Positions 45,041 to 50,364 of a stretch of DNA of 64,000 nucleotides are shown one piece after another (position 1 is the first letter of the stretch; each line of letters begins with the position of its first letter). The translations under genes and the position numbers were made by a program. Source of the stretch: Haliotis cracherodii (lineage: Eukaryota); assembly GCF_022045235.1 (NCBI RefSeq), contig NW_027266294.1, positions 496,001 through 560,000 on the forward strand, in the 5' to 3' direction. The notes under the pieces are model-generated. The model did no database searches and had not been told where the DNA came from. It worked only from the letters and a program-made list of their open reading frames with translations.

Positions 45041-45106
45041 GAATAAATAATGCTGTATATTATAGATAAAAAGTAATTCTTTATATATCATGCACAATAA
45101 ATAATG

Positions 45107-45889
45107 TAACAAATGTTATATTTGGGATAACACTTTCTTAGTAAAGTACAGATTCTCGTACTTTGTTTGGGTTGAGTCCCGTGCGGGGTTCAAACCCACA
45201 CCTGCCAGAGTGAGGCACCTTATCGTCAGCGCGCAACGTCAGTGATCTAACCCACACTGTCAGAGTGAGGCACCTAATCGTCAGCACACAAAGTCAGTGA
45301 TCTAACCCACACTGCCAGAGTGAGGCACTTTATCGTCAGCACACAAAGTCAGTGATCTAACCAACACTGCCAGAGTGAGGCACTTTATCGCCAGCACACA
45401 AAGTCAGCGATCTAACCCACACTGCCAGAGTGAGGCACCTAATCGCCAGCACAGAAAGTCAGCGATCTAACCCACACTGCCAGAGTGAGGCACCTAATCG
45501 CCAGCACAGAAAGTCAGCGATCTAACCCACACTGCCAGAGTGAGGCACCTAATCGCCAGCACACAAAGTCAGCGATCTAACCCACACTGCCAGAGTGAGG
45601 CACCTTATCGTCAGCACAGAAAGTCAGCGATCTAACTACCAGTTGTCAGACGTCCATTTTTGTGGAAGCCTTTGTGTGCTGGCGATAAGGTGCCTCACTC
45701 TGGCAGTGTGGGTTAGATCGCTGACTTTGTGTGCTGGCGATAAGGTGCCTCACTCTGACAGTGTGGGTTCGAATCCCGGACGGGACTCAACCGAAAAAAA
45801 AGTACAAGAACCTGTACTTTACTAAGAAAGTGTTATCCCAAATATAACATTTGTTACGTTTGACCCCTTTCTAAATGGCATTGTGTATT
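45107..45889. mobile_element. Head-to-head inverted dimer of a tRNA-headed SINE-like element with internal 55-bp tandem amplification
   Basis: Left arm 45106-45636 and right arm 45671-45857 are reverse complements; B box GGTTCGAATCC near 45766-45776; 8 copies of the 55-bp unit on the left, ~2 on the right; CACAATAAATAATG at 45093-45106 and 45890-45903. Confidence 0.85.
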
Positions 45890-47695
45890 CACAATAAATA
45901 ATGCTATATATTATAGATAATAAGTAATTCTGTATTTCATGCACAATAAATAGTGCTGTATATTATAGATAATAAGTAATTCTGTAAATCATGCACAATA
46001 AATAGTGCTGTATATTCTAGATAATAAGTAATTCTGTAAATCATGCAGAATAAATAATGCTGTATATTCTAGATAATAAGTAATTCTGTAAATCATGCAA
46101 AATAAATAATGCCGTATATTATAGATAAATAGAGGATTAACCAGGGAATTTAAGAGCGAATTAAATAGTGTCTTAAATATTGTGAAATATTGTTAACAAA
46201 AAACAAGGGCCCAAGGAACTGTCAGCAGGATTGATCAGGCATGATTCTATAAATACCAACTCAGGCAGCTGATCAGCTGATTACTGCTAGGTAAATCTTC
46301 TCAAATCCACCAATGGATTGTAATATTTTTGAATGAATTTTCCTCTTTAAAACTCATTTTACAGTGAATAAATTATTATGTAAAATGATGATTATTTCAT
46401 GTCATCTTTTTTTTGTTTTTCTTTGTTCCTGAACATGGTGAGCACATGTGTTTTTATTATATGAAAAAAACAACTTATTCAGTGAACAATTTTTCTTTTG
46501 AACATAATATTTAACATCATGACACCCAAAATGTTACTAAATGAGTAATTTAATTTTCCCATATTTGTGAATGACAAGAAACAATGTGAATTTGACAAGC
46601 ACAATACTTTATTGTGTGTGAAACATAGATACATAGGATATATGTAACAATAAATTATCATTTCAATAGTTCTACAAATATTTGCATTTTAATACCCTTG
46701 TAATGTTACATTGTTATTTTACTGCAACAGTCACCTCCAAACTTTATTCTTTTCATATTTTATCAGATTAGAAGTTAAGACTTACTGATAAAAGGTAATT
46801 TAACATTAACATTTTCTTCTTTTTATCTTCATGAAAACAAGACTCATAATAAATTTGTATTTTAGTGACCTGTACATATATGATTTTTTTGTAAAAAGTA
46901 TCAAAAGTAAAATATGACATTGCTAATGTAAAGAAATGAGGTTTATGGTAAAATGTAATAAGAGGACCCATTGTTGGTCATTTCTTCATCTCCCATAAAT
47001 TTGAGTTTTTCTTTGCTTACCATGTTCTGAAAATTTACACATTACAAATTAGAATAATTTAAGGTCTCTGATTAAAATAGCGACACAGCTTTCCACTCTC
47101 AGGCAATTAGATTATGTGAAAAAAAACACTGTAAACCTTGTAATGGGAGAATGATAAATAAAAATACATTTCTTATTTTGTCATATGTCCAGTTTATCAT
47201 CCCAAGAAATGCTAAACATTTATCATTAAAATTAAGCTAGCTATGCATATCGGGGCTCTTTATCTGCCACGGTAATATAACATAGGCATTATTAAAGAAG
47301 TGTTGTTTTATTCAGTAAACATGGTAAATAATAAATCTTTTGTTTTAAGAATATACTTGAGACAAACATAATTCTACATGCCTTTAATACTCTGTTTTGT
47401 CTGTTAATTCTGAACTGTGGCATTGAGTTTCTACCTAAAACTAATTATATGAAATTAATTTTAAGATTATTTCATCCTATCTAAAATACAAATTATATTT
47501 TAAGGTGCATAAATGCAAATCATTGTTGAAAATAAAGAATAATGTTTTTGAAAAAAAAGGCCTGATAAGGTTGATTGGTGCCCACCATCTTTATCTTCAT
47601 CATTTTGTCTGCTCCCTATAATAAATCAAAATAGTAAAGAAAAATTATAAATACATATATTACTTTTTTGAGTTTACATAGATTGAGGTATGACT

Positions 47696-48761: not shown

Positions 48762-50364
48762 GTTTTGCCAGCTGGGTATTTCCTGCGATGACACAGCTCT
48801 CCACTCTCAACCAGCCAATCAGATTGGGTGAATAAAAATAAACCACTGCGAATAAACCACTGCTGGCGATTGAAGATCAAGCCCTGTTATGGGAGAATAA
48901 GTAATTCTGTATTTCATGCACAATAATAATGCCGTATATTATAGATAATAAGTAATTCTGTATATCATGCACAATAAATAATGCCGTATATCATAGATAA
49001 TAAGTAATTCTGTATATCATGCACAATAAATAATGCTGTATATTATAGATAATAAGCAATTCTGTATTTCATGTTAAGTAAATAAGGCCGTATATTATAG
49101 ATAATAAGTAATTCTGTATATCATGCACAATAAATAATGCTGTATATTATAGATAATAAGTAATTCTGTATATCATGCTAAGTAAATAAGGCTGTATATT
49201 ATAGATAATAAGTAATTCTGTATTTCATGCACAATAAATAATGTGAGCATTACACTTGAAACTATGTTGCAAATCTGTACTGAAGTACACAAATTAATCA
49301 GGTCATAACACTGCATGGTGATAAACACTGCATATTGTTTATCTGGACTTATGTATGAAAATAATTTCATTAAAATACATTTTTTACATAACTTTGGGCA
49401 AAATTGTGTGAAGTGATTGGTAGCTTGCACAATTTGCCGTTATTTACAGCAACTTCAGTCAGATTAGCGCTATTGAAGCCTTGAAATGAAATTTAGTTTA
49501 TAGAGAATGGATATATATATATCCTAAATGCCATACTTGGACTCATTAAAAGTTATGTTTGTTGTAGTTTGACTTTTATATGTCAGCAAAAAGGTTTCAC
49601 AATCTGAGCGCAGGAGTCTCAACAGTGACTGGTCAAATTGTTTCGTGTGAAAAATATATCCTTCAATAATGTGATCAGCTGTATCAAAGTGCAACACTTA
49701 TGGTTATTATTATTTCTATGTGTAGCTGCAACTAAAGTAACACAATATTGGAATATATTCATGATAGAATATTAATTTTAGAAACAATTCTTACGAGATT
49801 GCATCAACATTCTTTAAAGTAATATCATTGTGTAGTGTATAACCAGATCCCCGGTGGCTTGGTGGCCTCCTTCACAGATATTGTCTTTGTGTGCACGGGA
49901 AGCTGCATTTTGAAAGTCTCAATTCAAGACACTAATTGTATATATATTTTGTCTGTGCGAAGACAGTGGTAATACTGGACACCCAAGTCTTGTGAGTTAA
50001 GTTGGTCTTCAAATGCCAAAGTTGACCAGAGCAGTAAACCAGCCATAGCTTTAGATAGGATGACAAGTTTTCAAATGTAATTTTCTCAAAATGGCAGACA
50101 GAAGCCAAGGTCATTTGAAGTAATCCTGAAACAAGAACCAGGGTGAGCATCATCAGTGGCTGCCGGACCAGGTCATGATGTGAGGAGCACGGGGATGTCA
50201 GTTTAATCCCGGGGTGAATCCAATAATCACGTGTAGTTCTATGATGGCCCACATCTGTTGTGGGAACCTGGACACACAGACAACCGTTCCCCCATCCGCA
50301 ACATGACACCAACAGCATCCGTAACTCACATCTATAACTCTGTAGAACTCTATAGTAGAACTGT

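What the first reader, a model, noticed from the sequence alone, without database searches (positions are those of the whole stretch)
45107..45889. Foldback element built from two head-to-head tRNA-SINE-like arms with an amplified Pol III promoter segment
Seen: each arm reads outward as [55-bp unit]n, then a B box (GGTTCGAATCC on the right, GGTTTGAACCC on the left), then an ~80-bp body. The unit spans from an A-box-like GGTTAGATCGC to just before the B box and rejoins at GGTT microhomology (8 copies left, ~2 right). A 34-bp spacer separates the arms. A 14-bp direct repeat flanks the whole dimer, suggesting one insertion event, although the host is itself a repeat. Inference: either a SINE-derived foldback DNA transposon or an inverted retro-insertion. 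It has divergent Pol III promoter remnants and would give long dsRNA if read through. It also shows a minisatellite forming from a tRNA head. This is the most unusual single structure in the window.
Basis: partly seen in the sequence, partly recalled or inferred. Interest (0 to 1): 0.7.

Follow-up and report, generated by a model that had tools for sequence, protein, structure and literature searches.

The report
Penelope-borne tRNA-promoter repeat, inserted back-to-back
This fold-back is one of many back-to-back copies of a common 298-base repeat with tRNA-type promoter motifs that was likely pasted in by the enzyme of a Penelope-type jumping gene; the locus is ordinary for its family, but the family likely shows a short non-coding RNA hitchhiking on that enzyme without a self-cutting ribozyme.

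Summary
The structure is real, but it is not a mobile foldback. It is one insertion of a 298-nt head-to-tail unit (1,350 exact hits of a 24-mer). Of 85 unselected loci, 52 are head-to-head and none tail-to-tail, all with different inner junctions; this window's junction is unique. The 'spacer' is ordinary unit sequence and the true A box is deleted here. Outer ends fall at two sites about 33 nt apart, the Penelope 'tail'. In 34 of 36 scorable pairs, this one included in kind, one arm ends at each site. The unit's end shares an 8-bp stem, with two compensatory pairs, with coding Penelope-like elements of this genome. It has no hammerhead and no nearby ORF. Its predicted Pol III transcript is one permuted unit that folds into a rod with paired ends. 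The 55-bp array is secondary slippage, seen at four other loci. No RNA evidence. This scan noted the same kind of element earlier in other genomes; I did not find it in print.

The parts
45093..45106 (+). Left target-site duplication (14 bp; last 4 nt also fit the element end)
45107..45636 (-). Inverted arm: unit positions about 121-268 with the 55-bp array; outer end at the short site, no tail
45186..45196 (-). Decayed B box of the inverted arm
45193..45636 (-). 55-bp minisatellite, 8.1 copies, from slippage between the 7-nt repeats at unit 117 and 173
   Evidence: like arrays at four other loci
45620..45636 (.). Inversion junction; falls on the unit's own internal inverted repeat (unit 54-68 against 121-136), 6-nt exact core; unique in the genome
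45635..45669 (+).
45669..45670 (+). 29-nt deletion (unit 105-133) that removes the A box
45670..45765 (+). About 1.8 copies of the 55-bp unit in the direct arm
45766..45776 (+). B box of the direct arm
45799..45820 (+). 7-bp hairpin at the place, and with a loop like that, of hammerhead stem II in the coding elements; the catalytic core is absent (homology inferred by eye)
45825..45872 (+). 8-bp stem (45825-45832 with 45865-45872; 7 of 8 pairs in this copy) enclosing the short end site at about 45857; shared with coding Penelope-like elements
45858..45889 (+). 32-34-nt 'tail', present on this arm only; ends at the long site
45890..45903 (+). Right target-site duplication (first 2 nt also fit the element end)
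45042..46128 (+). Host: 52-bp AT-rich minisatellite split by the insertion (45042-45106 and 45890-46128)

Best explanation
The element is one head-to-head insertion of an abundant, non-coding 298-nt tandem unit with tRNA-type A and B boxes, which is likely transcribed by RNA polymerase III and likely copied in trans by the reverse transcriptase-endonuclease of a Poseidon-type Penelope-like element (PLE). Inferred cycle: Pol III starts just after the unit's only T-run and stops at the next one, giving one permuted unit whose ends pair into a rod. The PLE protein recognises an 8-bp stem-loop inside that RNA, nicks both target strands about 9-16 bp apart, and starts DNA synthesis from each nick at one of two internal sites 33 nt apart, on the same template. 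One strand's copy therefore carries the tail and the other does not, and the two truncated copies are joined head-to-head by microhomology. Synthesis runs across the RNA's start/stop junction (joined ends, an end-to-end jump, or a read-through transcript), which gives the tandems. At this locus the A box was deleted and a 55-bp stretch expanded by slippage, so the copy is likely promoter-dead.
For: Shown: tandem 298-300-nt unit. Census of all 100 listed exact 24-mer hits (99 on contig C1, 1 on C2; 85 loci after merging hits of one insertion): 52 head-to-head, 33 direct, 0 tail-to-tail; 30 of 85 hold a tandem join; 114 of 137 outer ends lie at 262-274 (63) or at 294 and above (51). Of 36 head-to-head loci with both ends at these sites, 34 have one short and one long end (17.9 expected if independent, binomial P 9e-9). 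Target duplication of 8 nt or more in 29 of 52 head-to-head loci and 26 of those 36, against 2 of 300 mismatched flank pairs. The papers give this anatomy as the PLE signature: partial tandems, an adjacent inverted 5'-truncated copy, an optional 30-40-bp tail (PMC8557442, passages; PMC3846280, passages), and two internal RT start sites that define the tail, both target strands cut and extended (PMC11167929, parts 1-2 of 4). Coding PLEs of this genome show the same two-ended pattern. The unit's last 70 nt align to four of their end types better than shuffles (1-51 of 2000) but not to two Neptune-type ends (532-1336 of 2000). The shared 8-bp stem has 2 pairs changed on both sides (98.9% paired, 0 of 500 shuffles; slid controls 38-53%). 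A box and B box on the + strand only; the only run of 4 or more T lies just before the head in 14 of 15 full units. The permuted unit folds at z -7.4 on +, -3.5 on -, with 29-36 end-to-end pairs in 9 of 9 units (0 of 150 shuffles reach 36). The two arms of a locus share diagnostic alleles (31 of 31, 27 of 29, 21 of 22, 15 of 16, 13 of 13; expected about 18, 15, 13, 8, 8; two sites weaker, 18 of 24 and 13 of 19). 59 segments cross the predicted start/stop junction, 7 end near it.
Against: No autonomous element with a closely matching end was found: blastn of the unit against about 130 PLE-bearing loci gave only short chance-level hits and a profile of 9 PLE ends did not detect the unit (though that run passed no residues and may have been faulty). 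The anchored alignment start was chosen by eye, and two compensatory pairs may be one event (a 1-nt slip on each side). ARAGORN and Rfam do not call the head a tRNA; relaxed ARAGORN gives no consistent isotype, so tRNA origin rests on the two boxes. 16 of 52 head-to-head loci have at least one end off the two sites, and 23 of 52 show no clear target duplication. Allele sharing between arms could also come from one subfamily being active at a time or from later gene conversion. The end-pairing stem shows little variation among these young copies and could be a fixed fossil of an earlier fold-back. Pol III transcription, the partner enzyme and the RNA form are all untested.
Confidence: 0.8

Rival explanations
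1. The unit is the terminal repeat (pLTR) of a protein-coding PLE that carries a tRNA promoter, and these are its truncated stubs (mobilised in cis).
For: Same insertion anatomy as coding PLEs; the ATG in the tail sits where one coding family's ORF begins and opens a 43-codon frame; two earlier scan notes reached this reading for other genomes.
Against: What follows the tail is always the same unit again; tblastn of four PLE proteins against 151 unit-bearing loci (1.2-1.5 kb flanks) gave no hit at E 1e-4; a genome-wide pattern for a hammerhead end upstream of the unit's 15-nt motif found only variants of the known families.
Confidence: 0.07
2. An ordinary LINE-driven tRNA SINE whose 5' inversions come from twin priming.
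For: A and B boxes, 9-16-bp target duplications, variable 5' truncation; the last 20 nt resemble LINE-2-type tails I recall from fish SINEs (recalled, not tested).
Against: No simple-repeat or poly-A tail; tandem permuted units; arms overlap by 35-230 nt where twin priming (recalled) leaves little overlap; 61% inversions; a second fixed end 33 nt inside.
Confidence: 0.06
3. A foldback or MITE-like DNA transposon built from two SINE arms.
For: Long inverted arms and a target duplication.
Against: 52 of 52 junctions differ, this one is unique, arms are unequal, duplications vary in length, and 33 of 85 loci have no inverted arm.
Confidence: 0.02
4. A retrozyme: the template is the - strand, processed by a hammerhead-like motif whose cut site coincides with the long end.
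For: A core-like 7-mer and a GAAA with a minimal stem III lie on the - strand, and the implied cut falls at the long end; an antisense template was suggested for PLEs (PMC3846280, passages).
Against: Positions 3 and 8 are unpaired in 83 of 84 copies, stem II has 1 pair and stem I none, while three coding PLE controls pass; no Rfam ribozyme hit; the motif is the complement of a strand paired in the + rod.
Confidence: 0.05

Closest known systems
Insertion units of EN+ Penelope-like elements (Penelope/Poseidon; PAc of Anolis, PMC11167929 parts 1-2 of 4; Adineta Pen2a, PMC3846280 passages; overview PMC8557442 passages)
   Same: Partial tandems, head-to-head inverted truncated copy, optional 30-40-bp tail from two internal start sites, target duplication of about 8-16 bp
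   Different: No ORF, no hammerhead, a tRNA-type internal promoter with a T-run, unit of 298 nt closed on itself
Animal non-LTR retrozymes (PMC7761336 passages; bioRxiv 10.64898/2026.07.22.740005 part 1 of 5 and passages)
   Same: About 300-nt non-coding tandem unit, highly self-paired RNA, proposed PLE partner and rolling-circle copying
   Different: Retrozymes are defined by a type I hammerhead and are said to lack promoters; this unit has A/B boxes and no valid hammerhead
Schistosoma Sm-alpha / Sj-alpha SINE-like repeats (seen only through passages of the review PMC6765202)
   Same: Tandem, Pol III-type promoter inside a permuted unit, needs two copies to make a full RNA
   Different: They are cut by a hammerhead; here a T-run would set the ends; PLE-type tails and inversions were not in the passages I saw
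Non-autonomous Chlamys elements such as MRC1 (PMC8557442 passages)
   Same: Non-coding, head-to-tail multimers, 3' end related to an autonomous PLE
   Different: No tRNA promoter in the passages I saw; algal clade with N-terminal endonuclease
TRIMp3: Helenus, Ajax, Cassandra (PMC10886601 passages)
   Same: A small-RNA-gene promoter captured by a non-autonomous retroelement that is not a LINE partner
   Different: LTR elements with PBS and PPT; partner is an LTR retrotransposon

Membership tests
PLE-mobilised element | Partial tandem (pLTR-like) arrangement | tested here: met
   30 of 85 loci hold a tandem join
PLE-mobilised element | Adjacent inverted 5'-truncated copy, head-to-head | tested here: met
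   52 of 85, none tail-to-tail
PLE-mobilised element | Optional 30-40-bp tail (two fixed 3' ends) | tested here: met
   114 of 137 ends at two sites about 33 nt apart
PLE-mobilised element | 3' end related to an autonomous PLE | tested here: inconclusive
   Shared stem with compensatory pairs and anchored alignment above shuffles; no close parent, blastn and profile negative
PLE-mobilised element | Mobilisation by the PLE protein | not testable with these tools
   Needs a biochemical or cell assay
Autonomous PLE | RT plus GIY-YIG ORF next to the repeat | tested here: not met
   No tblastn hit in 151 loci
Non-LTR retrozyme | Type I hammerhead in each unit | tested here: not met
   No valid core on either strand; three PLE controls pass; no Rfam hit
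Non-LTR retrozyme | Circular monomer RNA | not testable with these tools
   Only the fold and junction crossing bear on it
tRNA-derived SINE (SINE2) | A and B boxes | tested here: met
   Unit 110 and 176, + strand only; A box deleted at this locus
tRNA-derived SINE (SINE2) | Head assignable to a tRNA | tested here: inconclusive
   No ARAGORN or Rfam call; no consistent isotype when relaxed
tRNA-derived SINE (SINE2) | Head at the 5' end, simple-repeat or poly-A tail at the 3' end | tested here: not met
   Copies run through the head into upstream unit sequence (59 segments); ends are fixed and tail-less
tRNA-derived SINE (SINE2) | 3' end shared with a LINE | not tested
   No LINE library on hand
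Foldback / MITE DNA transposon | Recurring element with fixed inverted termini, constant interior and fixed-length target duplication | tested here: not met
   52 of 52 junctions differ; unequal arms; duplications vary

The most novel reading that the evidence does not exclude
A ribozyme-free, Pol III-made rod RNA whose paired ends are joined into a circle is copied by a PLE dimer whose two subunits start at the two tail sites on one RNA, one on each target strand; the strict one-long-one-short rule (34 of 36) would be the genomic footprint of that dimer, and such 'Penelope SINEs' would be an unrecognised third class of Pol III parasites beside LINE-driven SINEs and TRIMp3.
Probability: 0.3. 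Interest if true: 0.75.

Novelty: new variant of a known kind. Interest (0 to 1): 0.5.

Why it matters
The locus itself is a decayed copy and matters little. The family matters in two ways. It points to tRNA-promoter elements that ride Penelope-like enzymes without a hammerhead, a pairing I did not find in 8 paper searches (Repbase, Dfam and supplements not seen), though this scan has noted it in other genomes. And its many short, fully resolved insertions give counts that bear on the open PLE mechanism: head-to-head only, one tailed and one untailed end, both arms from a like template, and an 8-bp stem conserved by compensation around the first start site. That stem and the two sites can be tested directly in the published in vitro PLE assay.

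Tried and rejected
Rfam at E up to 10 on the window and on a tandem copy: only chance-level hits. ARAGORN: none. Search for the autonomous parent by GIY-YIG family, RT protein, EN protein and a pattern: found Neptune-type and three to four Poseidon-type families, none with a closely matching end. Six hammerhead-bearing loci share the unit's exact 15-nt motif but lack its tail, so I do not count them as the parent. nhmmer profile of 9 PLE ends: no hit. RNA: no RNA holder listed on record. Three miRNA-seq runs of a related organism gave 1, 35 and 4 reads, 29 of them starting at one place on the - strand and mostly running on unlike the unit: too few to bear on expression or dsRNA processing. Contigs of a guessed RNA run did not cover this locus's junction, which proves nothing. 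No excess of 5' ends at the predicted RNA start (0.73 per 100 nt against 0.22-1.44 elsewhere), so a plain linear template that stops there is not supported. A 56-nt version of the minisatellite junction was not found. Host gene: no recognisable coding frame near the element among unmasked frames of 45 aa or more (by eye only), so intronic position and read-through dsRNA remain open. Look-ups of earlier findings by sequence found nothing.

Full report
Observation. The described structure is in the sequence: an 8.1-copy 55-bp array at 45193-45636, about 1.8 copies in the opposite orientation at 45670-45765, inverted bodies, and a 14-bp direct repeat at 45093-45106 and 45890-45903 that duplicates a once-per-unit stretch of the host 52-bp minisatellite. 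The right arm is 32-34 nt longer at its outer end than the left. The window is 63% tandem repeat, so a new minisatellite is unremarkable here. Short-read contigs touch both outer junctions, each with only 23 nt on the element side, which is partial support against an assembly artefact.

The family. The right arm has 2,270 first-look candidates in the 1.18-Gb genome, and a 24-mer from it matches exactly 1,350 times. Fetched copies show a 298-300-nt unit in head-to-tail partial tandems. Numbering below follows the natural copy L014. Against it, the 'spacer' is unit 70-104 on the + strand, followed by a 29-nt deletion that removes the A box. The left arm is unit 121-268 on the - strand and also lacks the A box. 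The inversion junction lies on the unit's own internal inverted repeat and occurs once in the genome at up to one mismatch.

Census. I took all 100 listed hits (99 on C1, 1 on C2), merged hits of one insertion (15 rows) and parsed 85 loci. 52 are head-to-head, 33 direct, none tail-to-tail, and all 52 inner junctions differ. 114 of 137 outer ends lie at two sites (63 at 262-274, 51 at 294 or above). In 36 head-to-head loci with both ends on these sites (262-272, 292 or above), 34 have one of each, against 17.9 expected (P 9e-9); 16 loci have an end elsewhere and were not scored. The window locus, counted apart, is of the one-short-one-long kind. Duplications of 8 nt or more flank 29 of 52 head-to-head and 7 of 33 direct loci (null 2 of 300). 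The two arms of a locus are closer to each other than to other loci in 30 of 40 cases and share diagnostic alleles. This removes the foldback-transposon reading.

Why Penelope. Partial tandems, an adjacent inverted truncated copy and an optional 30-40-bp tail are given as the PLE signature in PMC8557442 (passages) and PMC3846280 (passages). PMC11167929 (parts 1-2 of 4) shows that the purified protein cuts and extends both target strands, starts at two internal RNA sites that define the tail, and does not need hammerhead cleavage. The genome holds coding PLEs. I label them Neptune-type and Poseidon-type from recalled motifs, without a tree; Pfam finds RT in all five scanned and GIY-YIG only in the first type. 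The Poseidon-type families are young and show the same two ends and head-to-head pairs. Their ends and the unit's last 70 nt share two blocks at the same distance from the two ends, which pair as an 8-bp stem around the short site; two pairs differ on both sides between the unit (74 distinct sequences) and the coding families (20 of 22). Anchored alignments beat shuffles for four Poseidon-type ends (1-51 of 2000) and not for two Neptune-type ends. Against this, blastn and a profile found no overall homology, no close parent was found, and the two compensations may be one event. No PLE protein match lies near 151 unit-bearing loci, so the unit is non-autonomous.

The RNA (predicted). A and B boxes lie at 110 and 176 on the + strand, and the only run of four or more T lies at 92-96, just before the head, in 14 of 15 full units. 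A Pol III transcript would be one permuted unit with both start sites inside it, which suits an enzyme that starts internally and would not suit a LINE. After an earlier scan note suggested paired ends, I tested this: 9 of 9 natural units pair 29-36 bases between their first and last 45 nt, none of 150 shuffles reaches 36, and the + strand folds at z -7.4 against -3.5 for the - strand. 59 segments cross the predicted start/stop junction and 7 end near it, with no excess of ends. That fits a joined circle, an efficient end-to-end jump or read-through multimers; these data do not separate them. Neither strand has a valid hammerhead, while three coding controls do (the U3-A8 variant is in PMC4209133, passages).

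The 55-bp array. Its junction occurs at four other loci: C12 (3 units, also head-to-head, other junction), C14, C31:43 kb and C34 (about 39 units with their own variants). It arises between 7-nt repeats at unit 117 and 173, at least twice independently. Both arms here carry it, so it likely predates or accompanied the insertion and grew later; conversion between arms is the alternative.

What is known. Nearest are PLE insertion units, animal retrozymes (PMC7761336 passages; bioRxiv 10.64898/2026.07.22.740005, part 1 of 5 and passages), Schistosoma Sm-alpha (through PMC6765202 passages), non-autonomous Chlamys, and TRIMp3 (PMC10886601 passages). It works like a non-autonomous PLE; it fails the retrozyme, ordinary-SINE and foldback tests. 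Eight searches showed no paper describing a tRNA-promoter, ribozyme-free PLE passenger; subscription journals, Repbase, Dfam and supplements (for example File S1 of PMC8557442) were not seen and may hold one. Earlier notes of this scan describe the same kind in other genomes, one of 297 bases; they are unchecked and are not counted as support. Other notes call this genome an abalone; I did not test that.

Verdict. Real, explained, and ordinary for its family; the family is a new variant of a known kind with a testable mechanism. Interest 0.5.

Noticed in passing
L178, L181, L182, L185, L197, L198, L201-L205, L209, L211-L215, L217, L218, L220, L222: Many copies of three Poseidon-type PLE families stop 5-25 nt upstream of their hammerhead and continue directly into varied parts of one RNase H-bearing LINE in the same orientation; a LINE insertion hotspot or a template switch.
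   Followed up: no
L264-L267 (G000 C4:14.91 Mb, C18:8.30 Mb, C45:9.38 Mb, C67:52.48 Mb): Four loci share one junction joining another SINE/LINE-like repeat to the unit at about position 228: a composite subfamily.
   Followed up: no
L127, G000:C34:45995340-45997505: 2.2-kb minisatellite of about 39 copies of the same 55-bp stretch, with higher-order repeats, an intact head and no 3' body.
   Followed up: partly
L080, L091, L114: A Neptune-type PLE with a canonical minimal hammerhead, its own tail of about 34 nt and insertion into (TA)n.
   Followed up: partly
L108-L111, L113, L116, L117: A PLE family whose copies end about 25 nt after the stop codon, with no hammerhead seen downstream.
   Followed up: no
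L118, L119 (G000 C14:1.38-1.40 Mb): Two small stand-alone GIY-YIG-like frames of about 135 aa, unlike PLE endonucleases.
   Followed up: no
window 48896-49243: A second array (6.7 copies) of the 52-bp host minisatellite, 3 kb from the first.
   Followed up: no
window 1-64000: 63% of the window is tandem repeat, in dozens of unrelated minisatellites separated by short unique stretches.
   Followed up: no
Words of the unit occur in runs of five coded organisms (A-E), so the family is shared among relatives; one run of organism C was laid and holds many copies with inverted joints.
   Followed up: partly
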